A stretch of DNA of 64,000 nucleotides. It comes from Candidatus Omnitrophota bacterium. Its GTDB lineage: Bacteria; Omnitrophota; Gorgyraeia; Gygaellales; Profunditerraquicolaceae. Below the pieces are notes generated by a model. That model was not told the DNA's origin and ran no database searches. It worked only from the letters and a program-made list of their open reading frames with translations. Positions 6,911 to 62,566 of this stretch are shown here, piece after piece; position 1 is the stretch's first letter; each line of letters opens with the position of its first letter. A program made the position numbers and the translations under genes. The DNA is taken from assembly GCA_035402765.1 (NCBI GenBank), contig DAONDX010000002.1, positions 65,173 through 129,172 of the forward strand, in the 5' to 3' direction.

Positions 6911-7526
6911 CGATCCGCCGAGCTAAATCTTCAATGGCGTTATTTACCGCGGTAGCCTCAGAGACCCTGACGCTAGCTTGGTTAAGATTCTCACTGGTAA
7001 AATAAGAATAATTTCCGTTAAAATTATTCTCCTGCCAAAGCAGCTTATTCTCTTTAGTATCCCAAAGGCTTAAATTTACATAAATATTTATGCGATATTC
7101 GGTCACATTATCAGTATCATTAGTGTAACTTAACGGATCTTTACGGTATTCGATCAATTCACCCTTAAGCACTAAATCCGCGGTGGGTTCTTTGGCGGGT
7201 TTTAGATTGCCGTCAAAAAGATAACGGTTGACTACCTTTTTAGTAATATCTGTTTCCAGCATCGGCCGGTAGATGCGGTATTTATTCGCAGAAAATGATT
7301 CTTCCGCGATATCCACTTTATTCAGGAAAGGCGTAATGTAAATCGTATTATATTTACCATAAAGCATCGAGCGGGTGGTATAACCGCATCCGGTTAAACC
7401 GGCAGTCAGCAGGAAACCCGCGGCAAACAGGAATAAAAATAAGCTAATTCTTTTTTTCATTTTTCTGCTCCATAATCTGTAATTTGGCCGCGGCCTTCGC
7501 CGCCCAGGGGCTTTGCGTATACTCAT
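6885..7526 (-). CDS. LptE-like outer-membrane lipoprotein
   Basis: 213 aa. Lipobox LTGCGY after a signal peptide. Position between holA and the leuS side mirrors enterobacterial leuS-lptE-holA synteny. Confidence 0.45.
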   Translation of the reverse strand: MSIRKAPGRRRPRPNYRLWSRKMKKRISLFLFLFAAGFLLTAGLTGCGYTTRSMLYGKYNTIYITPFLNKVDIAEESFSANKYRIYRPMLETDITKKVVNRYLFDGNLKPAKEPTADLVLKGELIEYRKDPLSYTNDTDNVTEYRINIYVNLSLWDTKENKLLWQENNFNGNYSYFTSENLNQASVRVSEATAVNNAIEDLARRIVERTVEQW

Positions 7527-17605: not shown

Positions 17606-19092
17606 TAGAATCCATACCAGTAATTAACCAACGGTTTATTTTCGGCAGACTGATCGATAATTACGCTTTTAACCCGGGAATATTCCAGGAAACCCTGCCG
17701 GCCCAGCTCTTTGCCAAATCCGCTTTGTTTAAATCCCCCGTAAGGCAGTTCGTTATAAAACGCGCCATAGGTATTGATCCAAACCGTGCCGGCGTTTAGA
17801 TTGCCGGCTAACTCTTGCGCCAAATATAAATCCTTGCTCCAGATACAGGCGGCCAAACCAAAATCTACGCTGTTGGCTAAACTCGCCGCTTCATCTGAAC
17901 CTGAAAATTTGTGGATTAAAACTACCGGCCCGAAAACTTCCTCTTTAAAAATGTGTGAATGGACTCCCACATCCACTAATACCGTCGGTTCAAAAAAATA
18001 ACCGTTCTTTAATTCCGGGTTTTCCGGTATTTTCCCGCCGCAGATCACTTTAGCGCCTTCAGCTTTAGCTTTATCGATATAGGCAATCACTTTTTTGCGC
18101 TGGGCATCACTGATCAAAGGCCCCATTTGCGTCTCAGGATTATCAGCTAAACCTAATTTTATGCGTTTGGCCTTTTGCACGAAACTATCCAGAAAACTGT
18201 CGTAAATGGCCTCCTGAACAAAAATCCGGGACATGGCTGTACACATTTGGCCTTGATTAAGAAAAATGGAGGTCAGCGAACTGTTGACCGCCACATCTAA
18301 ATCTACATCATTAAATATCAAGCTGGCAGATTTACCTCCCAGCTCCATAATCATCTTTTTCACATTTTTCGAAGCATATGTCAGGATCTGTTTGCCTATT
18401 TCACTGCTGCCGGTGAAAGAAATCATATCCGCCCGCTTATCCTCACAAAGCGCCTGGCCGATTTTTACTCCGCTTCCGTTAATTACATTCACTACCCCGG
18501 GCGGCAAGCCGGCGGCATGGATAATCTTGGCCAACTCTAAAGCCGACAGCGGAGTCAGGCTGGAAGGTTTTAAGATCACGGTATTGCCGGCGGCCAGAGC
18601 CGAAGCCATTTTCCAGCAGGCCATTAAAAGCGGATAGTTCCAAGGCACAATTAAAACCACTACCCCCATCGGCTCGCGGATTATTTTTCCTTTGGCGTCG
18701 GAGGAGACATTGACCTCTTCCTGGCTTAAATAATCAATAAAATTATTCGCGATAAACTCGAAAGTTTTAGCGCAGGAGGGAATATCCATAAAAGTAGTTT
18801 CTTTGATCGGCTTTCCGGTGTTCTGCATTTCCAATTCCGCAAGCATCCCGGCATTGTCTAAAATTCCCTGGGCGATCCGGAAAATAAAATTTTTACGCTC
18901 GATTAAAGAAAACTGCGGCCAGGGACCCCGGTCAAAAGCTTCCCGGGCAGAAGCCAGCGCCAGGTCTACTTCTTTATCAGAAGCCAAAGAAGCTTCGGCA
19001 ATGACTTTGCCGGTCGAAGGATTGATAATATTTTGTTTCTCGGCCGTTTCGATAAATTGTCCGTTGATATAAAGCGGGCATTTAGAATTCAT
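17605..19092 (-). CDS. NAD(P)+ aldehyde dehydrogenase
   Basis: 495 aa. ALDH Glu/Cys sites (MELGGKSA; NQGQMCTAMSR). Confidence 0.9.
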   Translation of the reverse strand: MNSKCPLYINGQFIETAEKQNIINPSTGKVIAEASLASDKEVDLALASAREAFDRGPWPQFSLIERKNFIFRIAQGILDNAGMLAELEMQNTGKPIKETTFMDIPSCAKTFEFIANNFIDYLSQEEVNVSSDAKGKIIREPMGVVVLIVPWNYPLLMACWKMASALAAGNTVILKPSSLTPLSALELAKIIHAAGLPPGVVNVINGSGVKIGQALCEDKRADMISFTGSSEIGKQILTYASKNVKKMIMELGGKSASLIFNDVDLDVAVNSSLTSIFLNQGQMCTAMSRIFVQEAIYDSFLDSFVQKAKRIKLGLADNPETQMGPLISDAQRKKVIAYIDKAKAEGAKVICGGKIPENPELKNGYFFEPTVLVDVGVHSHIFKEEVFGPVVLIHKFSGSDEAASLANSVDFGLAACIWSKDLYLAQELAGNLNAGTVWINTYGAFYNELPYGGFKQSGFGKELGRQGFLEYSRVKSVIIDQSAENKPLVNYWYGF

Positions 19093-20087
19093 TAGCTGAT
19101 CCTCACTTCTTTAAATAACGCAAACAGCCGGGTAAAAGGGACATACCACTTGGAAAGCTGGCCTAATTGTCCGCTTAATTTCATCTTGCCTTGGGTAACC
19201 GCGACAAATGAATCCAGCTTGCCTAAAAATACCTGCTCCCATACGGGGCTCGGCGCAGAAATTACAAAAGGAGCATCGCTATCGGTATCTAATTTTATAA
19301 TTTTCCCTTCTTCAAAATTAAATTTAAAAACCGCTTCGCTGTTATCCAGCTTGATGGCTAATTTTACCGTCAGGCCCAGCTCTTTGCCTTTCTGGGCGAT
19401 AAAGGCATCCTGATTGACTAAATCCACAATCGCCTGGATATGTTCCCGGCTAAACATGCGGTATACCGGCTGGGTGCGCTTTAAATCCTCTTTCAGCGCG
19501 CTATCTAAATCATCTAAAATATCTTTATCCCATAGCCGGGCGATGGAAGCGCTTTTTACCGCCTCCTCCAAAGCCTCGGTAATACTTAAAGCATCCTGAA
19601 ATTTATCTCCCATTGCCACCGTCCCGTGATTCTTTAAAACTACCAGATTATTGGTTTTTAAGGCGGCAATTACAGGCTCGGTGTCGGTTACCGTGGGCGT
19701 TTCCTGCGGAATGACGGGAATATCCCCAAGATAAAACTTAGTTTCAAAGCTCATGGCTTTCAGGGCCTTGGCCACGGCAAAATATCCGTTAATTAACGGC
19801 GGATGACAATGCACCAGGACTTTAGCCGCAAAATTTTTATAAACCAAACTATGCAAAGGTAATTCCGAACTGGGCTTTAATTCTCCTTCAAATTTTGCGC
19901 TCGCCAAATTCACCTTAACAATATCGCTTTCTTTTAATTGGCCTAAGAATGTCCCGGTGCCGGTGATCAAAATATTTTCCTGGTCAATCCGGCAGCTTAA
20001 ATTCCCGGATTTAGCTACAGCCAAACCTGCGGCATAAAGCCTTTTACCGACCTCAATAATTTCTAACCGCAACGCTTGATCAGACAT
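19092..20087 (-). CDS. Class II aldolase/adducin-domain protein (MtnB/Ald2/FucA-like) fused to a C-terminal SCP2 sterol-carrier-like domain
   Basis: 331 aa. N-terminal ~210 aa with class II aldolase metal-binding His (LVHCHPP, KNHGTV). C-terminal ~110 aa SCP2-like (FVAVTQGKMKLSGQLGQL). Confidence 0.65.
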   Translation of the reverse strand: MSDQALRLEIIEVGKRLYAAGLAVAKSGNLSCRIDQENILITGTGTFLGQLKESDIVKVNLASAKFEGELKPSSELPLHSLVYKNFAAKVLVHCHPPLINGYFAVAKALKAMSFETKFYLGDIPVIPQETPTVTDTEPVIAALKTNNLVVLKNHGTVAMGDKFQDALSITEALEEAVKSASIARLWDKDILDDLDSALKEDLKRTQPVYRMFSREHIQAIVDLVNQDAFIAQKGKELGLTVKLAIKLDNSEAVFKFNFEEGKIIKLDTDSDAPFVISAPSPVWEQVFLGKLDSFVAVTQGKMKLSGQLGQLSKWYVPFTRLFALFKEVRIS

Positions 20088-21002
20088 TTAAACTCCCAGA
20101 TAAATATGCTTGGTAATTAATTCTGCCGGAGTAACATCAAAAGCCGGATAATACGCTTTAACTTCTTTGGGCGCCAGACGTAAACCCTGGTAAATCTTTA
20201 ATTCATCATCCGGCCGGATCTCAATTCTAATTTCTTGGCCGGTTTTTAATTTTGAGGCCGGCGGGCAAATCACATAAAAAGGAATCTTAAAATATTTGGC
20301 TACCACCGCGATCTGATAAGTGCCGATTTTATTGGCAATGTCACCGTTTTGGGTTAAGTGATCGGCGCCGACGATGATTTTAGTGACTTTACCTAATGAT
20401 AATAAATAAGCCACCATATTATCCGTAATAATCGTCACTTCAAACCCGGCGCGCATGATCTCCCAGGCAGTCAGGCGCGAACCCTGCAAATACGGACGCG
20501 TTTCCGTAGTATAGAAACTGATCTTTTTACCCTGCTCTTTGGCCAGTTGAGCGATTAACGGCATTAACCCGCTGATGTTACAATGTGTGAGAATTACGTC
20601 GCCGTCTTTAAGCAAATCCGCGGTTGCCTGTGCCTGTTGGATTCTTTTACCTTTAAGCATCTCCAAGAAACCCAGGATACTTTTTTCTAAAGGTGCGCCG
20701 CTTTTTTCCATTCCCAAAACCATATCGGTTAAGAACTTAAAAGACAGCGTTGGCCGGGTAGCATTGATCGCCTCAGCCACCTTGGCTAAATCTTTATTCT
20801 GGCGATGGCTTAAGATAAAGGTATACATGACTAAAAGCACCTGGCCCACGGCGCGGGTCTTCATCTCCTTAATCGCCCGGCAAGCCTGGAGATAATTCTT
20901 AGCCTTAATATAGGTAAGCTTCTGGGGGAGTTTAGTCTCATCCAGAATATAAATGGTATTGCCTTTTAATTGTATCGGCCAAAATAATGGAGAAAAGTTC
21001 AT
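20088..21002 (-). CDS. mtnA: eIF-2B alpha/beta/delta family protein, probable 5-methylthioribose-1-phosphate / 5-deoxyribose-1-phosphate isomerase (MtnA-like)
   Basis: 304 aa. eIF2B/MtnA fold signature (ILTHCN...GADHLTQNGD, TAWEIMRAGFEVTIITDN). Directly abuts the aldolase gene; stop and start are adjacent. Confidence 0.7.
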   Translation of the reverse strand: MNFSPLFWPIQLKGNTIYILDETKLPQKLTYIKAKNYLQACRAIKEMKTRAVGQVLLVMYTFILSHRQNKDLAKVAEAINATRPTLSFKFLTDMVLGMEKSGAPLEKSILGFLEMLKGKRIQQAQATADLLKDGDVILTHCNISGLMPLIAQLAKEQGKKISFYTTETRPYLQGSRLTAWEIMRAGFEVTIITDNMVAYLLSLGKVTKIIVGADHLTQNGDIANKIGTYQIAVVAKYFKIPFYVICPPASKLKTGQEIRIEIRPDDELKIYQGLRLAPKEVKAYYPAFDVTPAELITKHIYLGV

Positions 21003-21013
21003 GGTTTTGTTAT

Positions 21014-21082
21014 TTGCGGGCGGCTTGGGTGTTTTCGCAGCGCGTCAGCGCTAGAAAATACCCAGGACAGGACCCGCAAAAT
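21014..21082. repeat. Structured intergenic repeat, copy 1 (imperfect long inverted repeat around GCAGCGCGTCAGCGCTAG core)
   Basis: GCGGGCGGCTTGGGTGTTTTC-gcagcgcgtcagcgctag-GAAAATACCCAGGACAGGACCCGC. Near-identical copies at 22113-22182 and 28013-28090. Confidence 0.8.
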
Positions 21083-21086
21083 TGAT

Positions 21087-21881
21087 CTATTTACCCTCTA
21101 GCTTCTTTACCAACGCCAGCGCAATTTTAATTAAATTGCCTTCGGCCATATAATAAAGCGGATTCATAAAACCCATTTCACCGGTAACCACATTATCACT
21201 AACGGCCAGTATTGAACAAGCCTTGATATTATAGGTCTGACAAATCGTCAAAAGCGTTGAAGAAACCATGTCCACGGCTCTGGCGCCTTCCTTGCGCTTA
21301 GCTTCCACAATTTCGCGGGTCTCCCGCAGTAAAGCATCCGTAGTCCAGGCTTTGCCCCGGTGCACCCTTAAACCCATGCCGGTGGCAATCTCAAATAAAA
21401 GATCAGAGAGATTTTTATTACTCGCCGTCTTAAAATCTTTATCCACATAATACGGAGTAACTCCGTCGCCGCGGATAATTTCATCCACGATAAATAAATC
21501 CCCGATTTTAATATCCTCATCCAATGATCCGCAGGTACCCACGCGGACAATGTTCTGAATTCCGGCATTACACATTACTTCGGTAGTAATTGATGTATCC
21601 GTAGAGAATCTTCCGCCGTTAATCCCGGTGACCTTAATCCCTTCATAAGTTCCGGTGTACATAGTATATTCCATAAAGGAAAAATTCTTCATGGGATTTT
21701 CCAGTTTTTTCATTAAAACATCCAGGCGGTCGCGCGGCCCCGGTACAATCGCATACTTGCCTACATCCTGCGGCCTAAGCTGGACCATTGCCGTTAAATC
21801 TTTCCCTGTCAAATGAACTGCTTTTTGCATTTCCATATTAACTATTCCTCTCCTTAAATGAGCGGACAACTTACGGAGCAA
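21087..21881 (-). CDS. Purine/5'-methylthioadenosine/5'-deoxyadenosine nucleoside phosphorylase (PNP/UDP family 1)
   Basis: 264 aa. DeoD-like blocks (YTGTYEGIKVTGINGG; VRVGTCGSL; phosphate-binding region). True start may be an internal Met (MEMQK/MQKAV). Confidence 0.75.
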   Translation of the reverse strand: MLRKLSAHLRRGIVNMEMQKAVHLTGKDLTAMVQLRPQDVGKYAIVPGPRDRLDVLMKKLENPMKNFSFMEYTMYTGTYEGIKVTGINGGRFSTDTSITTEVMCNAGIQNIVRVGTCGSLDEDIKIGDLFIVDEIIRGDGVTPYYVDKDFKTASNKNLSDLLFEIATGMGLRVHRGKAWTTDALLRETREIVEAKRKEGARAVDMVSSTLLTICQTYNIKACSILAVSDNVVTGEMGFMNPLYYMAEGNLIKIALALVKKLEGK

Positions 21882-50323: not shown

Positions 50324-51028
50324 TTACTTATTGAACCGGAAATTGACCAGATCCGCATCTTGCATAATATAATCTTTTTGCTCCAGGCGCATTTTTCCCG
50401 CCTGTTTACTTTGAGTTTCTCCGCCGCAAGAAATAAAATCGGCGAAACTTATAATTTCAGCACGGATAAAACCTTGCTGTATATCAGAATGGATGACGCC
50501 GGCGGCCTCCCAGGCAGTTGTCCCTTTTTTAATTAACCAGGCGCGGTTCTCTTTATCCCCAACGGTTAAAAAACAGATATAGCCGCTTTGGGAAACGACT
50601 TTAGCCAGCAAGGCGCCCAGGTCGGATAATTCTTCTTTATCGATCACCACCACCGGCTTAAGAGTAAATAAACCATACCCGGAAATAACTTCTTTTTCCT
50701 GCTCCGTTAAACCCAGCGTCGAAATAAGTTCCTCTTTTTCTAAAGCCCCTTTGATCTTATCCAAGATTATTTTTTCATTCTCCGCCGGAGCTTTAGATAA
50801 ACGTGTCTCTACAAAATCCAGGTCCTTAAGGATCAAATCCATCTTGGCATCGGCCTGAAGGATAATCACATCCGCCTCGCAAGCCTCCTCAGGCCCGACT
50901 AATTCCACCTGGGGATAAGTTTTCTTTTTCGCCTTAACCAGTTTATCCGCCTGGTCCAGACGGGTATCCTTGATATTCTGTTTACCCAAAGTAATCTCGC
51001 CAACCGCAAACGCGCTTATTTTCATCAA
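50324..51028 (-). CDS. YchF-like protein lacking the N-terminal P-loop G domain (helical insert + YchF C-terminal/TGS domain only)
   Basis: 234 aa. C-terminus FLTVGDKENRAWLIKKGTTAWEAAGVIHSDIQQGFIRAEII matches the YchF TGS-like domain. LFTLKPVVVI matches the YchF LLT.KP motif. No GxxxxGKS P-loop. Only 58 bp separate it from the upstream kamA stop. Confidence 0.55.
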   Translation of the reverse strand: MMKISAFAVGEITLGKQNIKDTRLDQADKLVKAKKKTYPQVELVGPEEACEADVIILQADAKMDLILKDLDFVETRLSKAPAENEKIILDKIKGALEKEELISTLGLTEQEKEVISGYGLFTLKPVVVIDKEELSDLGALLAKVVSQSGYICFLTVGDKENRAWLIKKGTTAWEAAGVIHSDIQQGFIRAEIISFADFISCGGETQSKQAGKMRLEQKDYIMQDADLVNFRFNK

Positions 51029-51086: not shown

Positions 51087-52274
51087 TTATTCCAGGTAGG
51101 TATAAATCTTGCCTTTATAATTACGCAATACATATTTACCCTTGGCCTGGGAAAGAATATAATTCGGCCCCACGGGGATTTTACCGCCGCCGCCCGGCCC
51201 ATCGATAACATAGGTGGGAACCGCATAACCGGAGGTATGGCCGCGTAACTTCTCGATAATATTTATTCCGGTAGCAACCGGAGTACGGAAATGCTGTGTG
51301 CCCCTGACCGGGTCACACTGATAAATATAGTACGGCCTGACCCTGATCTGCAAAAGGTCATGCACCAGGCGTTTCATGATAAATGGCCGGTCATTGATCC
51401 CTTTAAGCAATACTGATTGGCTGCCTAAAGGGATGCCGCTCTCCGCCAGCATATCACAGGCATTTTTACAACGCTTAGTAATCTCTTTAGGATGATTAAA
51501 ATGGATACTCATCCAAATCGGCGAATATTTTTTAAGCGTCTGGACCAATTTTTCCGTGATCCGTTGTGGCAGGGTTACCGGGATCCGCGTGCCGATTCTA
51601 AGTAATTCCACATGCGATATCGCGCGGATTTTCGAAACTAAAGACTCCAATGCTTCATCTTCCAAAGTAAGCGGATCGCCTCCGGAGATTAATACATCCC
51701 GGATTTTACGGTTAGTCTTAATATATTCTATCGCGGCGTCAAATTTAGTTTCCGGATCAATATCCTTCTCCTCATGATCTCCTACCAGACGCCGGCGGGT
51801 GCAATGCCGGCAATACATGGCACAATGGTCGGTTGCCAATAACAAAACCCTGTCCGGATAACGGTGGACTAAATGCGGCGCCGGAGAATCACGGTCTTCG
51901 GCGCAAGGATCCGCCATTTCATGCGGAGAAACAAAAAATTCATCATTAACCGGAACGGCTTGCCTTCTAATCGGGCAATTCGGGTCTTCGGCGTCAATCT
52001 GGCTGGCCCAGTAAGGAGTAATCGCCATCGCTAATCTGCCTTTGGCCTTATCAATACCTTTTTCTTCTTCGGGAGTAAGCTTAATAATCTGCACCAGTTC
52101 TTCTTTACTTCGGATCCGGTGTTTTAGCTGCCAATGCCAATCTTCCCAATCCAGAGGGTTGACATCTTTATAAAGAGCAAGCTGCTGATAATCTTTAGAA
52201 CGTTTAGGTTGCCGAGAAATAACGGGTGTTTCCAACTGTACTTTCTGGTTCTCTAAACTTACGGGATTGCTCAA
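51087..52274 (-). CDS. kamA: Lysine 2,3-aminomutase (radical SAM, KamA family)
   Basis: 395 aa. CAMYCRHCTRRR radical SAM cluster motif. PLP-binding region and KamA C-terminal domain. 4-bp overlap with the upstream ATP-grasp gene. Confidence 0.85.
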   Translation of the reverse strand: MSNPVSLENQKVQLETPVISRQPKRSKDYQQLALYKDVNPLDWEDWHWQLKHRIRSKEELVQIIKLTPEEEKGIDKAKGRLAMAITPYWASQIDAEDPNCPIRRQAVPVNDEFFVSPHEMADPCAEDRDSPAPHLVHRYPDRVLLLATDHCAMYCRHCTRRRLVGDHEEKDIDPETKFDAAIEYIKTNRKIRDVLISGGDPLTLEDEALESLVSKIRAISHVELLRIGTRIPVTLPQRITEKLVQTLKKYSPIWMSIHFNHPKEITKRCKNACDMLAESGIPLGSQSVLLKGINDRPFIMKRLVHDLLQIRVRPYYIYQCDPVRGTQHFRTPVATGINIIEKLRGHTSGYAVPTYVIDGPGGGGKIPVGPNYILSQAKGKYVLRNYKGKIYTYLE

Positions 52275-53272
52275 TTCAGCCTTTTCCTTTCCGAGGCGCT
52301 TAAAAGTATGGCCTCAATAAGATCTTCATATTTCATCCCGGCGGCATAAGCCATAATTGGGAAGTTAGATTCTTTAGGATCTAGCCCCGGTAAAGGATTA
52401 ATTTCTAGAACATAAGGTACATTGAATTTATCCAAACGGATATCCGTGCGCGAAATATCCAAACACCCGACTGCCCGGTGAGTACGCAAAGCGACATCTT
52501 TTACTTTTTCTTCCGTTTCCTTATCCAGTCTGGCCGGGCAATAGAATTCCGGCACCAGTCCCAGATCGCTATTGCCCTGGAACTCTTTCATCTTCCAGGA
52601 ATAAAAATATTCACCGCTTTTTTTACAATTCGAAAAATCGATTTCCAGGATCGGTAACACCCGGGTCTTGCCATTTTCTAAAATCCCGACCGTCAGTTCT
52701 TTACCTTCGATAAATTCTTCAACCAAAGCTTCCTGCCGGTAGATATTAATGCATTCCTTAACTTTAAGCTGCAGGTCCTGGGGATTATTAACAACATTTG
52801 TTTTGTTAATCCCTTTGGCCGATCCTTCACAGTTAGGCTTAACAATCAGCGGAAATTTTAAACCCGGATCCAGGATTTCATCTCCTTTTGCAAAAAGCTG
52901 AAAATTAGGAGTAGGGATATTCTCTGCTTTGAGGATCTTTTTAGTCAGCGTCTTATTCAATGCTAGCGCTAAAGAAAAAGTATCGCTGCCGGTATAGGGT
53001 ATATGTAAATAATCCAATACCGCCGGAACTTCACTTTCACGGAAACGGCCATGCTTTCCTTCGGCAATATTAAATACCATATCTACGCGATTTTTCCTGA
53101 AATAGGAAAATAATGCCGGGTATTCTACATCTATCGGTTCCACGGAATGCCCTTTAGTCTTAAGCGCCCTGACCACGGAATTAATTGTTTCCTCAGAGTC
53201 ACATTCGGAAAAATAATCCGCCGGCTTTAGCGGATCTTTCTTTTTTAAATTATAAGTCAGCGCAACACGCAT
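52271..53272 (-). CDS. D-alanine-D-alanine-ligase-family ATP-grasp enzyme (paralog 1)
   Basis: 333 aa. Ddl-like blocks (LIVKPNCEGSAKGI; LVEEFIEGKELTVGIL; DISRTDIRLD..PYVLEINPLPGL). Confidence 0.75.
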   Translation of the reverse strand: MRVALTYNLKKKDPLKPADYFSECDSEETINSVVRALKTKGHSVEPIDVEYPALFSYFRKNRVDMVFNIAEGKHGRFRESEVPAVLDYLHIPYTGSDTFSLALALNKTLTKKILKAENIPTPNFQLFAKGDEILDPGLKFPLIVKPNCEGSAKGINKTNVVNNPQDLQLKVKECINIYRQEALVEEFIEGKELTVGILENGKTRVLPILEIDFSNCKKSGEYFYSWKMKEFQGNSDLGLVPEFYCPARLDKETEEKVKDVALRTHRAVGCLDISRTDIRLDKFNVPYVLEINPLPGLDPKESNFPIMAYAAGMKYEDLIEAILLSASERKRLN

Positions 53273-54262
53273 TTAATTTACTCCATTTCTAACCAACGCA
53301 CTGTTTAAGATCTTGCCCACCATTTGTTCATAAGTAATGCCGATGTTTTTAGCCACGAGCATGAAGACATCTTCCGTGGATAAAGACGGCAGGGGATTGA
53401 TCTCTAAAACATAAGGATTGCCGTTGTTATCAACGCGGAAATCGACCCGCCCAAAATCCCGGCAATCGACCGCCCGATAAACTTTTAAAGATAGCTCATC
53501 TAACTTTTTCTTTAAATCGCTGGTAATTTTAGCCGGGCAAATATACTCTAGACGGTCAGAAGTGATCCGGGCAAAAGTATAAAATTTATCATTTAACTTT
53601 AATTTTCCGTCGATCTTTATTTGCACGACCGGCATGACCTGGGGATTTTCATTGCCCACAATCGCCACGGTAAATTCCTGCCCGGAAATAAATTCTTCCA
53701 CCAGGGCCGGCTGCTTGTAGGTTTTAACGATAAACTCTACCTGTTTCTTAAGTTCATCTGCGTTTTCTACACGCGAACTCTCGCTTAACCCTTTAGATGA
53801 ACCTTCAAAACGCGGCTTAACGATAAGCGGAAATTGGCAATGGTCCTGGTTAATTAAACCTTCTATGGATCTGACTTCAAAAAATTTAGGTGTAGGAATT
53901 TTTTCGGCAATAAAAATTTTCTTGGCCATCACTTTGTCTAAAGTCAGCCCCAAAGTCAAAGCGTCAGCTCCTACAAAAGGCACCCCGGCCATCTCCAGTA
54001 AAATAGGCACTTGCGACTCCCGGTTCCTGCCGCTTAGCCCCTCGGATATGTTAAAAACAATATCCACTCCCAGATTATCGATTTTCTCTAACAAATTGGA
54101 AGCGTTGCCGATCTTTTTAACCTTAAAACCGTTGGCGGCGATCGCCTCGGCGATCACATCCACGGTCGATAAAGAATCGAATTCCGCGTTAGCGTCCAAC
54201 GGATCGCCTTCTTTAAATTTGTAATCTGTTTTTAAATCGTAAGTTAATCCGACGGTTTTCAT
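53273..54262 (-). CDS. D-alanine-D-alanine-ligase-family ATP-grasp enzyme (paralog 2)
   Basis: 329 aa. Same blocks (LIVKPRFEGSSKGL; LVEEFISGQEFTVAIV; DFGRVDFRVDNNGNPYVLEINPLPSL). Abuts paralog 1. Confidence 0.75.
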   Translation of the reverse strand: MKTVGLTYDLKTDYKFKEGDPLDANAEFDSLSTVDVIAEAIAANGFKVKKIGNASNLLEKIDNLGVDIVFNISEGLSGRNRESQVPILLEMAGVPFVGADALTLGLTLDKVMAKKIFIAEKIPTPKFFEVRSIEGLINQDHCQFPLIVKPRFEGSSKGLSESSRVENADELKKQVEFIVKTYKQPALVEEFISGQEFTVAIVGNENPQVMPVVQIKIDGKLKLNDKFYTFARITSDRLEYICPAKITSDLKKKLDELSLKVYRAVDCRDFGRVDFRVDNNGNPYVLEINPLPSLSTEDVFMLVAKNIGITYEQMVGKILNSALVRNGVN

Positions 54263-54540
54263 TTTATGCTTATTTATGCTTATTTATTCCGGTTTTTAAG
54301 CCCTAAATAAAAAAATAAGGGCCCCTTTCAAATACTTTATCCTGAGCCCTCAAAACTTCTATCCAATTTTTTCCAACTTCAGTTTAATCCCCCGATAATT
54401 TGCCCGCAAAATGTAGTAGCTATGTTTATTTTTTACCACAATATGTTGAGATTGTCAAGTATTTTTTGCCTAAATTCCGGATAAAAAATTTTGATTTTGC
54501 CGTCGGAGGATTGATTTTTTAAAGATTGCGGCTGGTAATT

Positions 54541-55194
54541 TTATAAAACTAAAATGGGATGATTTTTATTTGCGGCAAAAACAATTCCGTTTTTCTTAAG
54601 GTCGCTGATTAATTGGTTAAAACTGCCAAAAACACAGGCGCAAATACCTAAAGCTCTTGCACTTTCCACTAATTCCGGCCGGTCATCGGTGTAAAATATT
54701 TCTTCCGGGTTAACTCCTAAATCCCGGATCACTAAATCATAGATCGCTTTCTCCGGTTTGATCAATCCCAACTGGTAAGAAAGGAAAATCTTATCAAAAG
54801 CCCCGAAGACCGGAAAATTCTTTTTCAGATATTCATGGTGCAGAATATTGATATTAGAAAGCAGCACGGTTTTATAATTGGCGCGTAATGAATTCGCTAA
54901 ACCAAAAACCGAGCGGTTTTTCGCGCTTAAAAAGAATATATCATTCCAGATCGGCTCAAATGAATTATAGCTGAGCTTTAAATCCAGCATCTGCTTAACT
55001 TTAAAATAAAAATCCTCAGGAGTAATCTTCCCGGCTTCAAAAGCGTTGGTTAATTCGGATCCCAGAAAAAGGTCAAAGATCTCCTGAGGAGTTTTAGGAC
55101 AAAACTCCGCTATCCGGCGGGCCGCCCTTAAAGGATCAAAATCCACGAGCACTCTGCCCAAATCAAAAAGAACGACTTTAATTTCTTTGGCCAT
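54541..55194 (-). CDS. HAD-superfamily hydrolase
   Basis: 217 aa. Motif I VVLFDLGRVLVD. Motif III/IV region (LLSNINI; YTDD). Confidence 0.75.
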   Translation of the reverse strand: MAKEIKVVLFDLGRVLVDFDPLRAARRIAEFCPKTPQEIFDLFLGSELTNAFEAGKITPEDFYFKVKQMLDLKLSYNSFEPIWNDIFFLSAKNRSVFGLANSLRANYKTVLLSNINILHHEYLKKNFPVFGAFDKIFLSYQLGLIKPEKAIYDLVIRDLGVNPEEIFYTDDRPELVESARALGICACVFGSFNQLISDLKKNGIVFAANKNHPILVL

Positions 55195-56183
55195 TAATTC
55201 CCCTTATCCGTATTCTTCCTGAAAAGATCCAGAAACTTATCTTCATATTCCTTATAAACATTCCACTTGTCCAATTCCACTTTTAACTCTTTAGCCTTGG
55301 AAATATCGCGGCGGCTTTCCTCAAAAAGCTTTTCGATTTTCTCTTTAATAGAAACCGGAAGATTGGTGAGCTGGCTTAAAGTTTTTTTAATCAATTCCAC
55401 TTCTTCCTCGCCGATCGGAGCAGATACTCCGGGGTTACCTAATTTTAAATATTCCAGCAATTTATTAATTTCGCTTTCCATGGCGGCGGCCTGCTCTTTG
55501 AGCGGCGCGACATTAATCGGCAGATTCAATATTTTCCCTAAAGCTTCTAACACGGCGGCGGAAGCTTTGGGATTCTCGATCTGAATAGTATAAAGCGGGA
55601 TCTCCCCCAGCAGACAAAATCCTTTTAACCCGGATTTTTTAGCAATCCCCAGGAATAATCCGTTCATCCCGCTGATCTGCCCGTCAACTAAAGCCGCAAA
55701 ATTAAATTTCTTTAAACTTTCTTTTATTTTCTGGTCGGTAGCGGCAAACCAAACCCCGGAATCCTGGGTATGATCAGTGGGCTGGGGCATAGAAGCAAAA
55801 CTTACGATCGTGCCTACGCCTAAATCGCTTGCCAGAGAGATAATCGTCTTGGCGTAACTATCCGCTTTAGAAAGATCCGGCTGGGCGTTGCTTAAAAAAA
55901 TGATCAGATCATTTTTACCGGAAGAGGCGCCTTTGGCCGCGGGATTTTTCCAATAATAAAACTTCCCCTGCGGAAGCTGCGGGACTTCCAATATTCCGGC
56001 GGAAATTACACTGCCGGACAAGTAAAAAAAATCATCCGGAATGATCCGGGCAAATTCCACGGCTTTTAATTCCTGGACCAAATATTCTGCGGCTTTAAAA
56101 GCAACTTCCCCCATCCCGGGCCAAGCGACAATCAAATAAGGTTTTTTAAGTTTTGGTTTTTTGGTAATAACTAAAGCGCCCAT
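55194..56183 (-). CDS. PAC2-family (proteasome-assembly-chaperone-like fold) protein with C-terminal coiled coil
   Basis: 329 aa. N-terminal LIVAWPGMGEVAFKAAEYLVQEL resembles the PAC2 family signature. Assignment tentative. Confidence 0.4.
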   Translation of the reverse strand: MGALVITKKPKLKKPYLIVAWPGMGEVAFKAAEYLVQELKAVEFARIIPDDFFYLSGSVISAGILEVPQLPQGKFYYWKNPAAKGASSGKNDLIIFLSNAQPDLSKADSYAKTIISLASDLGVGTIVSFASMPQPTDHTQDSGVWFAATDQKIKESLKKFNFAALVDGQISGMNGLFLGIAKKSGLKGFCLLGEIPLYTIQIENPKASAAVLEALGKILNLPINVAPLKEQAAAMESEINKLLEYLKLGNPGVSAPIGEEEVELIKKTLSQLTNLPVSIKEKIEKLFEESRRDISKAKELKVELDKWNVYKEYEDKFLDLFRKNTDKGN

Positions 56184-60039: not shown

Positions 60040-60888
60040 TTATTCGCAGGCTTTTAGGTTTAAAATATTATCCAGACGGAAAATGCGCTGCTCCTTTTTT
60101 AGGCAACAATAGCCAACCAGATATTTATATTTATTATCCTGGCGGATCTCCTGCGGGATAACTTCCCGCTGGGAGATCTCTCCATTATGGCTGGAAATAT
60201 AATTAAATTTAAGCACCGAGCCGCTGCGGATATATTTGTTGATCAAAACGGTTTTCTCGATATTCGAACTTTCAAGCAGCGCCGGATTATAGGCAAAAAG
60301 ATTGGAAAAATCAGTAAAACCGGTTATGCCTTTTTGCCGGCAAATTACCTTCAGCCTGCTAAAAACCTCCCAGGTCATCTCGACATCGGCCAACGCCCGG
60401 TGCTTCTGTTTTAAATTAATTTCTAATTTCTCCGCGACAAACCACAGGGGATAACGCGGCAGTCCCGGCAGGAGTTTTTTCGCCATGGTTAATACATCAA
60501 AAACTGCCAAACCCGTAAGCGGCCCGGCGCCTAACAACTGCAATTCATGATTTAAAAAACCCAGGTCAAACTCAGCATTATAAGAACAAAGACAGCTTCC
60601 CTGAACAAATTCTAAAAATTTGGGAATGACCGTTTCGATACCGGGGGCGCCTTGTAACATTTCCGGAGTAATTTTATTTACCGCAAAAGCTCCCGGAGAA
60701 ATCAAACGCCCCGGATTAACCAATACATCAAATTCCGCCAGCCGTCTTTGCCCTTTGACTCTTAATCCGGCTAACTCCACAATGCGGTCTCCGGAAAACG
60801 GGTTAAGCCCGGTAGTCTCGGTATCAAAAATGGTAAATTCCAGCTCTTCAATATTTTCGTTCATCTCGAGTGGCAATGTAAGCGGCAA
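60040..60888 (-). CDS. DEDDh 3'-5' exonuclease (DnaQ/epsilon-like) with C-terminal extension
   Basis: 282 aa. Exo I FDTETTGL, Exo II region, Exo III HRALADVEMT. Confidence 0.75.
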   Translation of the reverse strand: MPLTLPLEMNENIEELEFTIFDTETTGLNPFSGDRIVELAGLRVKGQRRLAEFDVLVNPGRLISPGAFAVNKITPEMLQGAPGIETVIPKFLEFVQGSCLCSYNAEFDLGFLNHELQLLGAGPLTGLAVFDVLTMAKKLLPGLPRYPLWFVAEKLEINLKQKHRALADVEMTWEVFSRLKVICRQKGITGFTDFSNLFAYNPALLESSNIEKTVLINKYIRSGSVLKFNYISSHNGEISQREVIPQEIRQDNKYKYLVGYCCLKKEQRIFRLDNILNLKACE

Positions 60889-61753
60889 CTAAACGCGCCG
60901 GTTTATAAGCCAGCTTGGTTTTGCGCAAATTCTCCAGGCCCGAATCATCCATAATATTAATATATTGATAGCCTGTTAACTCCTGGCTAAACTGACGAAA
61001 AATAAACTGCGCCAATCCCTTAATGGTCAGGTCAGTAATTTCATAAAGTATACAGAATATTTCTTTATTGAGCCGGTAGCCAAAACTAAAAGCCTTGATC
61101 TGTTTATCTATTTTAACCACAATACCCTCTAATCCCAGCTTTTGATAATTCGCGAATGCCTCTTTGATAAGCTGACGGTTATCCTCAAGCATCCCGCAAT
61201 AAACAGTATCTTGGCATTGAGACTTACGCTGGAGTATCCAGGAATCGAACAGATCCAGACAACCCGGCCGATCCGTTAATTTAAGTATGCTTGCGGCAAA
61301 ATCATAATGTTTGGTAAAATAATTATACGCGGCACGCTGAGATTTAAATTTATTTCCTTTCAGGAGCGCTAAATCCCGGCGCCGGCAAAGATAATCCGGG
61401 TATTTTTCATTACACAGATAACCCAAAGAACGGTATCCGGCTAAATCTTCCTGCGGGATATTCTCAATGCGTGAGATATCCTTGTTTTGATTAAACTGGT
61501 CCATGATTGAGAAAGCCTGAGGGATAACTTCCGGCTGCACACGCAGCGACAGCGGCGGCAAATACATAAAACAACCCAAAGCATCCCGGAAGAAGATACA
61601 CAGGCATCCTTTAATAATTACCCATTCAATATTATAAAAAACGCGCCAGAAATAGATATTCGCAAACGAGAAAGCCGCCAGTTCATGCGGGGAAAAAGCC
61701 AGGTACCGGGCAAATAATCTTTGGTCTTTTAAAGTTAATTTATTTAACTTCAT
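60848..61753 (-). CDS. DUF2156-domain protein (MprF C-terminal / aminoacyl-tRNA-dependent transferase-like GNAT fold)
   Basis: 301 aa. N-terminal LKDQRLFARYLAFSPHELAAFSFANIYFWRVFYNIEWVIIKGCLCIF matches the DUF2156 signature as I recall it. Confidence 0.5.
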   Translation of the reverse strand: MKLNKLTLKDQRLFARYLAFSPHELAAFSFANIYFWRVFYNIEWVIIKGCLCIFFRDALGCFMYLPPLSLRVQPEVIPQAFSIMDQFNQNKDISRIENIPQEDLAGYRSLGYLCNEKYPDYLCRRRDLALLKGNKFKSQRAAYNYFTKHYDFAASILKLTDRPGCLDLFDSWILQRKSQCQDTVYCGMLEDNRQLIKEAFANYQKLGLEGIVVKIDKQIKAFSFGYRLNKEIFCILYEITDLTIKGLAQFIFRQFSQELTGYQYINIMDDSGLENLRKTKLAYKPARLVAAYIATRDERKY

Positions 61754-62249
61754 GGGACAGGTTTAATTCCGCTACTTCCCGGACCTCTTCATAAGCCTGG
61801 ATAATTTGAGGATTATCCTTAAGCATCGAACGCAGCGGACGGGAATTAAGATAACCGGTCAAATAAACAATATAATCTTTGGCCGCCGGGCTGTTGATTT
61901 GTTCATAGACATAAGGGCAATTTAAATCTACCGTTAATAAAACTTTGCCCTTGCGAAGATTAATCAGAAATGGATAGAGCTGGCATTCAAACGGACGGGT
62001 ATCGTAAATTTTACATTTATTATCCTGCACCCCTAAAAACGGGCAGATAAAATCTGCGCCGGAGGGGTTGGCAACCACCTTGATGCGGTGGTCAATAGAC
62101 ATGGCCACTGCTGGAATTCCCGGTTTATCCAGTAAACCCTGGACCTCTTCATCCAAAAGACAGGGGCTCCACACCGAATCTTCTTCCTTAAACCGGCAGC
62201 AGCCCCGGCATTTAATACAAAAATCCTGGGGAACAAATTGTTTGATCAC
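61740..62249 (-). CDS. YkgJ-family Cys-cluster (putative Zn/Fe-binding) protein
   Basis: 169 aa. CIKCRGCCRF plus further Cys (CPFL..CKIY..C). Confidence 0.55.
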   Translation of the reverse strand: MIKQFVPQDFCIKCRGCCRFKEEDSVWSPCLLDEEVQGLLDKPGIPAVAMSIDHRIKVVANPSGADFICPFLGVQDNKCKIYDTRPFECQLYPFLINLRKGKVLLTVDLNCPYVYEQINSPAAKDYIVYLTGYLNSRPLRSMLKDNPQIIQAYEEVREVAELNLSHEVK

Positions 62250-62566
62250 TTTACCACGCTCCCCAATTTCAGGTTTTTTTCCGGGGTAACGACGGCCAAC
62301 AAATTTTCATCTGAACCGGCTAAAATCATCCCCTGGCTTTCAACTCCCCGCAAAATCACCGGATCTAAATTATCCACCACAACCACCTGTTTACCGATTA
62401 ATTCTTCCCGGGTGTAGAATTTTTTAATTCCCGCCACCACCTGTTTTTGCCGGTCACCTAAATCTAAAGTTAAAACTACCAGCTTATCGGCATTCGGATG
62501 GTCAGCAACCTCTTTAATCTGAGCAATCTTAAATTCTAATTTTCTAAAATCATCAATCGTGGCCAT
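62246..62566 (-). CDS. Stand-alone tRNA-binding OB-fold protein (CsaA/Trbp111/Myf domain)
   Basis: 106 aa. FKIAQIKEVADHPNADKLVVLTLDLGD...RGVESQGMILA matches the tRNA-binding domain found at the MetRS/PheT C-terminus and in CsaA. Confidence 0.75.
   Translation of the reverse strand: MATIDDFRKLEFKIAQIKEVADHPNADKLVVLTLDLGDRQKQVVAGIKKFYTREELIGKQVVVVDNLDPVILRGVESQGMILAGSDENLLAVVTPEKNLKLGSVVK

What the first reader, a model, noticed from the sequence alone, without database searches (positions are those of the whole stretch)
51087..54262. Lysine 2,3-aminomutase directly followed by two tandem Ddl-family ATP-grasp ligases: candidate beta-lysine-containing peptide or compatible-solute pathway
kamA and two paralogous D-Ala-D-Ala-ligase-like genes are linked by 4-bp, 0-bp and 58-bp junctions. 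They lie far from any mur/ddl cell-wall (dcw) cluster. No murein-synthesis neighbours are present, and two copies in tandem argue against a housekeeping Ddl. Established precedent: KamA homologs supply beta-lysine for N-epsilon-acetyl-beta-lysine osmolyte synthesis in methanogens, for EF-P lysylation and for antibiotic beta-lysine tails. Ddl-family ATP-grasp enzymes ligate an amino-acid carboxylate to an amine. Two successive ligases could make a di- or tri-peptide-like product containing beta-lysine, or oligomerise it. The nearby M20 deacylase and HAD hydrolase (54.5-57.4 kb) could belong to the same pathway.
Basis: inference. Interest (0 to 1): 0.65.

Follow-up and report, generated by a model that had tools for sequence, protein, structure and literature searches.

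The report
Beta-lysine ligase operon, product unknown
A tightly packed three-gene operon in an Omnitrophota genome pairs an enzyme that makes beta-lysine with two cell-wall-ligase look-alikes that are not cell-wall enzymes; the same set recurs, sometimes fused, in several phyla, pointing to an undescribed beta-lysine-containing small molecule.

Summary
Three back-to-back minus-strand ORFs sit at 51087-54262: ATP-grasp ligase A, ATP-grasp ligase B, then KamA.

KamA keeps the radical-SAM cysteines, the PLP lysine and both aspartates that bind the lysine side chain, so it is a lysine 2,3-aminomutase.

Both ligases have the D-Ala-D-Ala ligase (Ddl) fold and all ATP/Mg/catalytic residues. They score below every curated Ddl cut-off, and their D-Ala pockets are changed (H63 to E, Y216 lost, S281 to D/E).

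The triad is invariant in every one of about 80 Omnitrophota genomes whose contig reaches far enough, and it is better conserved than its flanks.

Related cassettes occur in Elusimicrobiota and Dehalococcoidales, the latter as KamA-ligase-ligase-GNAT. Natural fusions exist: KamA+ligase, ligase+ligase and ligase+GNAT. Myxococcota and Bacteriovoracia have a fused double ligase next to an S58 (beta-aminopeptidase family) peptidase.

Best reading: KamA supplies beta-lysine, and the two ligases, probably as a Ddl-like heterodimer, couple it into a small cationic amide or peptide. The product and its role are unknown, and no paper or curated family covers this cassette.

M20 and HAD are not consistently linked. 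A conserved promoter, mini-ORF and terminator leader precedes the operon.

The parts
54309..54458 (-). Conserved leader. It has a sigma70-like promoter (TTGACA 54458-54453; TGg-TAAAAA 54437-54429). A Shine-Dalgarno-like GGGGG follows at 54393-54389. Next comes a TTG-initiated mini-ORF, MEKIG-stop, at 54376-54359. It ends with an intrinsic-terminator hairpin (54352-54316) and a T7 run (54315-54309), 46 nt upstream of the grA ATG.
   Evidence: Sequence read; hairpin predicted. The same TTGACA, ~140 nt, T-run arrangement is found in 78 of 82 related loci, at variable distance from the grA start. The mini-ORF reads MEKIG in 29 and MEK in 8 of 77 unique copies, and its stop lies mostly 7-14 nt before the hairpin. 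Only the terminator helix is supported by RNAalifold. There is no Rfam match, and the motif occurs once in the window.
53273..54262 (-). grA: Ddl-fold ATP-grasp ligase, 329 aa, first gene of the operon. It is the ligase type most consistently paired with KamA across phyla.
   Evidence: Pfam Dala_Dala_lig_C 137 bits. Best NCBIfam Ddl model 192.4 bits against a 243-bit cut-off. AlphaFold pLDDT 86.6; Foldseek top hits are Ddl at TM ~0.8 and 20-27% identity. Catalytic residues are kept, H63 is E, and S281 is D, invariant in the grA type. Orthologues in Omnitrophota are 74-94% identical.
52271..53272 (-). grB: paralogous Ddl-fold ATP-grasp ligase, 333 aa, starting immediately after the grA stop codon.
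   Evidence: 39% identical to grA. Pfam Dala_Dala_lig_C 123 bits; NCBIfam Ddl 201.7 bits against 243. Catalytic residues are kept, with H63 to E, Y216 to E, S281 to E/D, and a longer omega-loop. Always follows grA in the close Omnitrophota loci that extend far enough; absent from some more distant KamA-linked loci.
51087..52274 (-). KamA: lysine 2,3-aminomutase (radical SAM/PLP), 395 aa, TTG start overlapping the grB stop by 4 bp. It is a short form that lacks about 50 C-terminal residues of the Clostridium enzyme.
   Evidence: TIGR03820 527.1 bits (cut-off 525.4); Glu-2,3-aminomutase 470 against 650; EpmB 259 against 369. Against PDB 2A5H: 484 bits, aligned 32-395 to 6-367 of 416. CxxxCxxC at 151-158. 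D321, D358 and K365 correspond to D293, D330 and K337 of 2A5H.
50324..51028 (-). YchF C-terminal-domain protein, 234 aa, with no recognisable P-loop. It is the usual downstream neighbour and may be co-transcribed. Membership in the system is uncertain.
   Evidence: Pfam YchF-GTPase_C at residues 151-233 only. Present after KamA in most but not all Omnitrophota loci. A weak terminator-like hairpin lies in the 58-nt gap.

Best explanation
The window carries a three-gene operon, grA-grB-kamA, for making a beta-lysine-derived amide or peptide.

Proposed steps:
- KamA converts free L-lysine to beta-lysine (3,6-diaminohexanoate). The residues are shown; the activity is inferred.
- grA and grB are D-Ala-D-Ala-ligase-fold ATP-grasp enzymes with a complete ATP/Mg/acyl-phosphate apparatus but a re-tooled substrate pocket.
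- By analogy with Ddl chemistry, each ligase phosphorylates an amino-acid carboxylate and hands the acyl group to an amine.
- The glutamate that in Ddl holds the donor's amino group is kept. That fits a free (beta-)amino acid as acyl donor.
- The serine that in Ddl holds the acceptor's carboxylate is replaced by an invariant Asp/Glu, and His63 by Glu. That fits a positively charged acceptor, such as the second amino group of (beta-)lysine or a di-/polyamine.

Ddl is a homodimer, and related ligases occur as natural double-ligase fusions. The two paralogues therefore probably work as a heterodimer carrying out two successive ligations. The likely product is a small cationic beta-lysine di- or tripeptide-like compound or short oligomer.

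The physiological role is inferred and uncertain. A cytoplasmic solute is plausible, either a compatible solute or a polyamine-like cation.

Expression appears to be gated by a conserved leader in which translation of a tiny Lys-containing ORF ends just before an intrinsic terminator. A ribosome reaching the stop codon would mask the terminator. Read-through would then depend on lysine sufficiency. This regulatory step is inference only.
For: Gene identities and tight coupling: 0-bp and 4-bp junctions.

KamA determinants: CxxxCxxC and the D293/D330/K337 equivalents are kept in the window and in 38-39 of 39 cassette KamAs that are 42-92% identical.

Ligases:
- Ddl fold.
- K97, K144, E180, E187, R255, D257, E270 and N272 equivalents are all kept.
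- H63 to E in all groups. S281 to D in 100% of the grA type and E/D in the grB type. Y216 is not kept.
- Sub-threshold for every curated Ddl/Van model.

Selection: the triad is invariant in 80 Omnitrophota loci wherever the contig extends, and is the most conserved part of the region (74-95% identity against 43-90% for flanks).

Rosetta-stone fusions:
- ATP-grasp+KamA (P0187) and KamA+ATP-grasp (P0243).
- Many ~650-730-aa double ligases.
- ATP-grasp+GNAT.

Cross-phylum cassettes:
- Elusimicrobiota.
- Dehalococcoidales/Chloroflexi KamA-ligase-ligase-GNAT, with or without GNAT-deacetylase.
- 17 of 26 well-flanked metagenome loci have KamA within two genes.

Fused double ligases sit directly upstream of Peptidase_S58 in two phyla. 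S58 is the family of the DmpA and BapA beta-aminopeptidases (PMC9570944).

Precedent: a peptide osmolyte made by a bifunctional acetyltransferase/peptide-bond-forming enzyme, Ngg in NAGGN synthesis (PMC8070244).

Leader.
Against: - No product has been seen; everything is comparative.
- The window operon has no GNAT, peptidase or exporter that would hint at the product's fate.
- Some relatives have only one ligase with KamA (L087, L114-L118, L123, L127). Some ligase pairs have no KamA nearby (L081-L084, L089, L092). Beta-lysine may therefore not be the substrate of both enzymes, or of the whole family.
- The fused Myxococcota proteins are not clear orthologues of grA+grB.
- Residue roles are transferred from E. 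coli DdlB by alignment, with a one-column ambiguity at E15 and at 281/282. No coordinates were available to inspect the pocket.
- Many close relatives carry groundwater or lake isolate labels, where an osmolyte role is not obviously needed.
- In the leader, the spacing from the Shine-Dalgarno-like motif to the TTG is long (12-14 nt), and the peptide is not conserved in divergent copies.
Confidence: 0.6

Rival explanations
1. Protein modification. The ATP-grasp ligases attach KamA-made beta-lysine to a lysine of a translation factor or ribosomal protein. This would be an EpmA-independent version of EF-P beta-lysylation, or a RimK-like tagging system.
For: - A KamA-family enzyme supplying beta-lysine for ligation to an amine is what EpmB does (established knowledge).
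- Neighbours are often translation-related: a YchF C-domain protein in the window, an EF-G-like paralogue inserted after KamA in L012 and L022 and, by clustering, in L094, L097, L099 and L162, rpsU after KamA in L087, and rimP-nusA-infB upstream in L091.
- Very high conservation suggests a core function.
- The best weak hit of the GNAT partner is RimI (42.8 bits, below its cut-off).
Against: - KamA scores as the AblA/Clostridium type, not EpmB (527 against 259 bits).
- The ligases keep the compact three-domain Ddl architecture and the donor-amine glutamate, typical of small-molecule ligases.
- Partners elsewhere (GNAT, deacetylase, S58 aminopeptidase, mechanosensitive channel) fit small-molecule metabolism better.
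- No efp lies in the window or in any of the 172 loci.
- The flanking genes are general housekeeping genes, so the translation flavour may be coincidental.
Confidence: 0.12
2. Cell-wall ligases. grA and/or grB are this lineage's divergent D-Ala-D-X ligases for peptidoglycan precursors, and KamA is linked for unrelated reasons or supplies an unusual stem-peptide residue.
For: - Closest solved structures and the best family models are all Ddl/Van.
- The organism makes peptidoglycan (MurJ in the window).
- No canonical ddl was seen in the DNA available.
- Several source databases name the orthologues D-alanine-D-alanine ligase.
Against: - Scores are below all curated Ddl cut-offs, and NCBI names most orthologues only 'ATP-grasp domain-containing protein'.
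- The acceptor-carboxylate serine is replaced by an invariant acidic residue, Y216 is lost and H63 is replaced.
- There is no dcw context.
- KamA-ligase fusions tie the ligase to beta-lysine.
- The cassette is common in Dehalococcoidales. Cultured members of that order lack a peptidoglycan wall (my own knowledge, not tested for these MAGs).
- Only 64 kb of the genome was searched, so absence of another ddl is not informative.
Confidence: 0.07
3. Unrelated chemistry. KamA here starts lysine catabolism or makes only free or acetylated beta-lysine. The ligases act on other substrates, for example ordinary L- or D-amino acids, as in L-amino-acid ligases.
For: - Ligase pairs exist without a nearby KamA (L081-L084, L089, L092).
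- KamA just passes the AblA equivalog cut-off.
Against: - No lysine-fermentation genes (kamD/E, kdd, kce, kal) and no ablB-type GNAT lie in the operon.
- Overlapping or abutting reading frames, invariant synteny and covalent KamA-ligase fusions are hard to explain without shared metabolism.
Confidence: 0.08

Closest known systems
D-alanine--D-alanine ligase and VanA-type D-Ala-D-X ligases (ATP-grasp; PDB 2DLN, 4ZQI, 1E4E)
   Same: Same three-domain fold (TM ~0.8). Same ATP, Mg and acyl-phosphate residues. The donor-amine glutamate and the Ser150 equivalent are kept. A dimeric enzyme is expected.
   Different: - Only 20-30% identity, and below all curated cut-offs.
- His63 to Glu, Tyr216 lost, Ser281 to Asp/Glu, and an extra GRNRES loop.
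- No mur/dcw context.
- Two paralogues in tandem or fused.
- Linked or fused to KamA.
AblA/AblB pathway for the compatible solute N-epsilon-acetyl-beta-lysine (methanogens and some bacteria)
   Same: KamA passes the AblA equivalog model. Related cassettes in Dehalococcoidales add a GNAT acetyltransferase, and sometimes a GNAT-deacetylase, next to KamA.
   Different: The window operon has no GNAT. It has two ATP-grasp ligases that the Abl pathway lacks. The partner GNAT elsewhere is a ~160-aa protein with no hit to a beta-lysine acetyltransferase model.
NAGGN synthesis (Ngg + AsnO), a dipeptide osmolyte made without ribosomes or NRPS
   Same: Same logic. A soluble enzyme forms a peptide bond between free amino acids and an acetyl group caps the amine (PMC8070244). 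L086 has an ATP-grasp-GNAT fusion reminiscent of Ngg's bifunctionality.
   Different: There is no AsnO-type amidotransferase. The ligase family is Ddl-like, and no NAGGN-related model is among the best NCBIfam matches, which are all sub-threshold Ddl/Van models. The amino acid supplied is beta-lysine, not glutamine.
EpmB/EpmA beta-lysylation of elongation factor P
   Same: A KamA-family aminomutase makes beta-lysine that is then ATP-dependently joined to an amine.
   Different: KamA here is not the EpmB type (259 against 369 bits). The ligase in the Epm system is a lysyl-tRNA-synthetase paralogue, not an ATP-grasp enzyme. No efp or epmA lies nearby.
Beta-lysine oligomers of streptothricins and epsilon-poly-beta-lysine (my own knowledge)
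   Same: Natural amide-linked beta-lysine chains fed by a KamA-type aminomutase.
   Different: Those are assembled by NRPS-type or Pls-type synthetases in actinomycete secondary metabolism. Here the candidates are Ddl-fold ATP-grasp ligases in a core-genome operon.
L-amino-acid ligases and related ATP-grasp peptide ligases (BacD/YwfE, RizA, TabS, DdaF, PGM1; my own knowledge)
   Same: ATP-grasp enzymes that join unprotected amino acids into di- or oligopeptides, sometimes acting in pairs.
   Different: None of them appears among the PDB sequence matches at E<=1e-10, which are all Ddl/Van. None is known to use beta-lysine or to be linked to KamA.

Membership tests
Lysine 2,3-aminomutase (KamA/AblA, EC 5.4.3.2) | Radical SAM CxxxCxxC cluster motif | tested here: met
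   C151-x3-C155-x2-C158 in the window protein; Radical_SAM Pfam hit.
Lysine 2,3-aminomutase (KamA/AblA, EC 5.4.3.2) | PLP-binding lysine (K337 of 2A5H) and the two aspartates binding the lysine epsilon-ammonium (D293, D330). These are replaced in glutamate 2,3-aminomutase (my own knowledge of the Frey laboratory's work). | tested here: met
   K365, D321 and D358 align with K337, D293 and D330. They are conserved in 38-39 of 39 cassette KamAs.
Lysine 2,3-aminomutase (KamA/AblA, EC 5.4.3.2) | Score above the curated equivalog cut-off | tested here: met
   TIGR03820 527.1 against 525.4 bits, a narrow pass. Glu- and Arg-2,3-aminomutase and EpmB models are all below their cut-offs.
Lysine 2,3-aminomutase (KamA/AblA, EC 5.4.3.2) | Full C-terminal domain of the Clostridium enzyme | tested here: not met
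   LAM_C is matched only at profile positions 1-56 of 127. The alignment to 2A5H stops at residue 367 of 416. This is a short form; the consequence for oligomer state is unknown.
Lysine 2,3-aminomutase (KamA/AblA, EC 5.4.3.2) | Catalytic activity and stereochemistry of the beta-lysine produced | not testable with these tools
   Needs an enzyme assay.
D-alanine--D-alanine ligase (Ddl, EC 6.3.2.4) | Three-domain ATP-grasp fold with ATP/Mg/catalytic residues (K97, K144, E180, E187, R255, D257, E270, N272 of E. coli DdlB) | tested here: met
   All are kept in grA and grB and in all four relative groups aligned (one at 92%). The model matches Ddl structures at TM ~0.8.
D-alanine--D-alanine ligase (Ddl, EC 6.3.2.4) | D-Ala pockets: the E15/S150/Y216 triad, and S281/L282 holding the D-Ala2 carboxylate | tested here: not met
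   The Glu and Ser are kept. Y216 is T/I-like in grA and E in grB. S281 is D in grA (100% of the grA type) and E/D in grB. H63 is E in all. Residue roles are my own knowledge of the DdlB structures.
D-alanine--D-alanine ligase (Ddl, EC 6.3.2.4) | Score above the curated family cut-off | tested here: not met
   Best model NF002378 gives 201.7 (grB) and 192.4 (grA) bits against 243. TIGR01205 gives 162 and 164 against 245.65.
D-alanine--D-alanine ligase (Ddl, EC 6.3.2.4) | Genomic association with mur/fts cell-wall genes | tested here: not met
   Neighbours are purH, folC, mnmE, HAD, PAC2 and M20. The only wall-related gene in the window, murJ, is 46 kb away.
EF-P beta-lysylation system (EpmB + EpmA) | EpmB-type aminomutase above the cut-off, with epmA and efp | tested here: not met
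   TIGR03821 259.3 against 369.3 bits. No efp lies in the window or loci. epmA was not searched genome-wide.
AblA-AblB N-epsilon-acetyl-beta-lysine pathway | Beta-lysine acetyltransferase (GNAT) encoded next to the aminomutase | tested here: not met
   There is no GNAT in the window operon or its flanks. A GNAT is present in the Dehalococcoidales-type cassettes.
NAGGN synthase (Ngg/AsnO) | Bifunctional GNAT + peptide-forming enzyme with a partner amidotransferase | tested here: not met
   No such architecture exists in the window. The ATP-grasp-GNAT fusion of L086 matches only sub-threshold Ddl/Van models among the 25 best shown.

The most novel reading that the evidence does not exclude
The cassette makes a natural beta-peptide: a short, ATP-grasp-assembled oligo- or dipeptide of beta-lysine built by a Ddl-like heterodimer. 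This would be a core, previously unrecognised cationic metabolite of Omnitrophota, Elusimicrobiota, Dehalococcoidales and others. Related double ligases would be paired with S58 beta-aminopeptidases as the matching degradative enzymes, giving that peptidase family its long-missing natural substrate. Expression in Omnitrophota would be set by a new lysine-codon leader-peptide attenuator.
Probability: 0.3. Interest if true: 0.8.

Novelty: new variant of a known kind. Interest (0 to 1): 0.62.

Why it matters
Beta-lysine is known as a fermentation intermediate, as an osmolyte precursor, as the EF-P modifier and as an antibiotic building block. In none of these is it handled by an ATP-grasp ligase.

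A conserved, sometimes fused, KamA-plus-Ddl-like-ligase cassette in several poorly studied phyla points to an undescribed metabolite class. It also points to a new substrate specificity within one of the best-studied antibiotic-target enzyme folds.

Practical consequences:
- It flags hundreds of database entries called 'D-alanine-D-alanine ligase' that are probably misnamed.
- The recurrent pairing of related double ligases with S58 peptidases offers a testable lead to the natural role of beta-aminopeptidases.
- The three genes are small and soluble, so the prediction can be tested directly by heterologous expression.

Tried and rejected
- Literature. Seven combined aminomutase or beta-lysine with ATP-grasp, D-alanine ligase, Dehalococcoides or Omnitrophota (one further attempt failed on syntax). 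None found a paper describing this linkage. Two more searches only supplied precedents.
- M20 and HAD as pathway members. Rejected as obligate parts because many syntenic loci lack them and have glycosyltransferase or O-antigen-ligase genes instead.
- Glutamate or arginine 2,3-aminomutase. Rejected on model scores and on the retained Asp pair.
- Riboswitch in the 5' leader. There is no Rfam hit. Folding energy is no better than shuffles (z -0.53). No conserved helix exists apart from the terminator.
- Regulon search. The leader motif occurs only once in the window.
- Looking for a canonical ddl or efp. None lies in the window or in 172 loci.
- Treating the Myxococcota fused proteins as orthologues of grA+grB. 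Half-by-half scores do not separate into A and B types, so they are treated as a related family only.
- DUF1015 appears near the ligase in both L081 and L091. Two cases are too few to interpret.
- No curated NCBIfam model matches the partner peptidase, the deacetylase fusion or DUF1015.

Full report
**What is in the sequence**

All genes between 44 and 64 kb are on the minus strand. The finding's coordinates cover exactly three ORFs:
- grA, 54262-53273, 329 aa.
- grB, 53272-52271, 333 aa, starting on the base after the grA stop.
- KamA, 52274-51087, 395 aa, with a TTG start overlapping the grB stop by 4 bp.

The ligases are therefore transcribed before KamA, not after it. A gene for a YchF C-terminal-domain protein follows 58 nt downstream, and then purH, folC, mnmE and folE. 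Upstream, after a 278-nt gap, lie HAD, PAC2, an M20 ArgE/DapE-type deacylase, an HhH-GPD glycosylase and a PilZ protein. The closest relatives of grA are all from Candidatus Omnitrophota MAGs, so the window comes from that phylum.

**KamA**

- It passes the NCBIfam lysine 2,3-aminomutase equivalog narrowly (527.1 against 525.4 bits). It fails the glutamate, arginine and EpmB models.
- It aligns to the Clostridium subterminale enzyme (2A5H) with 484 bits over residues 32-395.
- The radical SAM CxxxCxxC motif is present at 151-158. So are the PLP lysine (K365 = K337) and both aspartates that hold the lysine epsilon-ammonium (D321 = D293, D358 = D330).
- The protein stops about 50 residues short of the Clostridium C-terminus.

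**The two ligases**

- grA and grB are 39% identical to each other and 20-30% identical to solved Ddl and VanA structures. Those are the only PDB families matched.
- An AlphaFold model of grA (pLDDT 86.6) superposes on Ddl at TM ~0.8. Only the omega-loop is disordered.
- Aligned to E. coli DdlB, both keep every ATP, Mg and catalytic residue (K97, K144, E180, E187, R255, D257, E270, N272), the donor-amine glutamate and Ser150.
- The differences: His63 is Glu in all relatives. Tyr216 is not kept. Ser281, which in Ddl binds the carboxylate of the second D-alanine (my own knowledge of the DdlB structures), is Asp in 100% of grA-type proteins and Glu/Asp in the grB type.
- Both score well below every curated Ddl/Van cut-off.

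They are therefore active-looking ATP-grasp ligases with a different, more acidic acceptor pocket. The other refutation condition, all D-Ala residues retained, is also not met. Whether a canonical ddl exists elsewhere in the genome could not be checked. None lies in the window or in any held locus, and murJ, lptE and bamD in the window show a normal diderm envelope.

**Conservation in Omnitrophota**

In 80 Omnitrophota genome loci, the order grA-grB-KamA is invariant wherever the contig reaches. The three proteins are 74-95% identical to the window's, against 43-90% for the flanking genes. The YchF-C gene usually follows. In some genomes an EF-G-like paralogue is inserted before it. HAD, PAC2 and M20 are missing from many loci and are replaced by glycosyltransferase and O-antigen-ligase genes. 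They are not part of the conserved unit.

**The wider family**

A search of 1.84 billion representatives found 1168 clusters at E<1e-30. Many are 650-730-aa proteins with two ligase modules.

Pfam shows two KamA fusions: P0187 is ligase+KamA and P0243 is KamA+ligase. The gene after P0243 encodes a ligase+GNAT fusion.

Context look-ups and a metagenome scan give four recurring layouts:
- (i) grA-type, grB-type, KamA, as here.
- (ii) grA-type + KamA only, in deeper Omnitrophota-like lineages and, with an insertion, in Elusimicrobiota.
- (iii) KamA, ligase, ligase, GNAT, sometimes followed by a GNAT-histone-deacetylase-family fusion, in at least 13 loci. Named relatives of this layout are Dehalococcoidales/Chloroflexi.
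- (iv) A fused double ligase followed directly by a Peptidase_S58 gene in Anaeromyxobacter, other Myxococcota and Bacteriovoracia, without KamA nearby.

Among 26 loci with at least 2.5 kb on both sides, 17 have KamA within two genes. All cassette KamAs keep the lysine-specific residues. In four loci a mechanosensitive-channel-like membrane protein lies directly upstream of the ligase. No curated NCBIfam model claims any of these ligases, and no paper in the library connects KamA with ATP-grasp or Ddl-like ligases.

**Mechanism proposed**

Shown:
- A lysine-type KamA and two catalytically complete Ddl-fold ligases are translationally coupled.
- They are co-inherited across phyla and repeatedly fused.

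Inferred:
- KamA supplies beta-lysine.
- Each ligase activates an amino-acid carboxylate as an acyl phosphate and transfers it to an amine.
- The retained donor-site glutamate suits a free (beta-)amino acid donor.
- The acidic replacements at the acceptor site suit a cationic acceptor, such as the second amine of beta-lysine or a diamine.
- Because Ddl is a homodimer and double-ligase fusions are common, grA and grB probably form a heterodimer that performs two ligations.

The product would be a small cationic beta-lysine amide, peptide or short oligomer. The S58 partner in layout (iv) belongs to the DmpA/BapA beta-aminopeptidase family. That would fit products with a free N-terminal beta-amino acid, but this link is indirect. 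GNAT and deacetylase partners, channel neighbours and the NAGGN precedent make a compatible-solute or polyamine-like role plausible but unproven.

**Regulation**

The 278-nt gap upstream of grA contains, in order:
- a TTGACA/TGnTAAAAA promoter-like site;
- a GGAGG-like motif;
- a TTG-initiated mini-ORF (MEKIG-stop);
- 6 nt later, a 9-bp GC-rich hairpin with a T7 tail.

This ~150-nt unit is found in 78 of 82 related loci. It occurs even where the upstream gene differs, and its distance to the grA start varies from 7 to about 150 nt. The peptide is MEKIG or MEK in about half of the unique copies, with synonymous ATT/ATC variation. The stop codon lies mostly 7-14 nt before the conserved GGGCTC core of the hairpin, or the ORF runs into it. 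Only the terminator is structurally supported and Rfam has no match. I read it as a translation-coupled attenuator. A separate micro-gene cannot be excluded.

**Rivals**

- Protein beta-lysylation (0.12). It is favoured by translation-related neighbours. It is disfavoured by the KamA subtype, the small-molecule ligase architecture and the partner genes elsewhere.
- Divergent cell-wall Ddl (0.07). It is disfavoured by the pocket changes, the sub-threshold scores, the fusions and the Dehalococcoidales distribution.
- Unrelated chemistry (0.08). It is disfavoured by the fusions and the overlapping frames.

**Verdict**

The transcription order is corrected, and M20 and HAD are removed from the pathway. 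The cassette is an uncharacterised, widely distributed variant of amino-acid-ligase metabolism built around beta-lysine. Its product remains to be identified.

Noticed in passing
window 54309-54458 (minus strand): A conserved ~150-nt unit lies upstream of grA in 78 of 82 related loci: a promoter-like site, a GGAGG motif, a TTG mini-ORF (MEKIG or MEK) and an intrinsic terminator. It has no Rfam match and no aptamer-like structure. It is possibly a lysine-codon leader-peptide attenuator.
   Followed up: partly
window 50324-51028 (minus strand): A 234-aa protein has only the C-terminal YchF/TGS-like domain. It shows no Walker A motif by eye at its N-terminus, so it looks like a YchF relative that has lost its ATPase. 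It is conserved downstream of KamA in most Omnitrophota loci.
   Followed up: partly
L012 9219-11180; L022 9220-11181; also L094, L097, L099, L162: A ~650-aa EF-G-like paralogue with all five EF-G domains is inserted between KamA and the YchF-C gene in a subset of Omnitrophota genomes.
   Followed up: no
window 60848-61753, 61740-62249 and 62246-62566 (minus strand): A stand-alone LPG_synthase_C domain protein (the aminoacyl-tRNA-dependent transferase domain of MprF, without the membrane flippase part) lies next to a CxxCxxCC protein and a small tRNA-binding-domain protein. This may be an aminoacyl-tRNA-dependent transfer system of unknown target.
   Followed up: no
L081 10288-11757; L083 10105-11256; L159; L165: In Anaeromyxobacter, other Myxococcota and Bacteriovoracia, a fused double Ddl-like ligase is always followed by a Peptidase_S58 (DmpA/BapA family) gene. 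This conserved two-gene unit has no described function.
   Followed up: partly
L136 7000-8739; L157; L160: A ~580-aa fusion of a GNAT domain and a histone-deacetylase-family domain ends the KamA-ligase-ligase-GNAT cassette in some Dehalococcoidales-type loci. It combines an acetylating and a deacetylating module in one protein.
   Followed up: no
L102, L103 7145-7840, L109, L110; L083 5577-6665: A mechanosensitive-channel-type membrane protein lies directly upstream of the grA-type ligase in four metagenome loci, and an MscS-family gene lies three genes upstream of the fused ligase in L083. This is a possible osmotic link.
   Followed up: no
L081 4719-6068; L091 13456-14559: A DUF1015 protein lies within a few kb of the ligase in both Anaeromyxobacter and an Elusimicrobiota MAG (about 25% identity between them).
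   Followed up: no
window 55194-56183 (minus strand): A bacterial PAC2 (proteasome-assembly-chaperone family) protein has a ~90-residue charged C-terminal extension. It is encoded between the M20 deacylase and the HAD hydrolase, and this trio is conserved in about half of the Omnitrophota loci.
   Followed up: no
window 4323-5897, 6885-7526, 7444-8397: MurJ lipid II flippase, LptE and a BamD-like lipoprotein are present, so the organism has a peptidoglycan-containing diderm envelope. This is relevant to the question of whether a canonical ddl exists elsewhere.
   Followed up: no
window 16103-21881 (minus strand): A run of genes includes an AMP-binding enzyme, an aldehyde dehydrogenase, a class II aldolase, an IF-2B-family (MtnA-like) isomerase and a PNP_UDP_1 phosphorylase. 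It resembles a methionine-salvage-type cluster.
   Followed up: no
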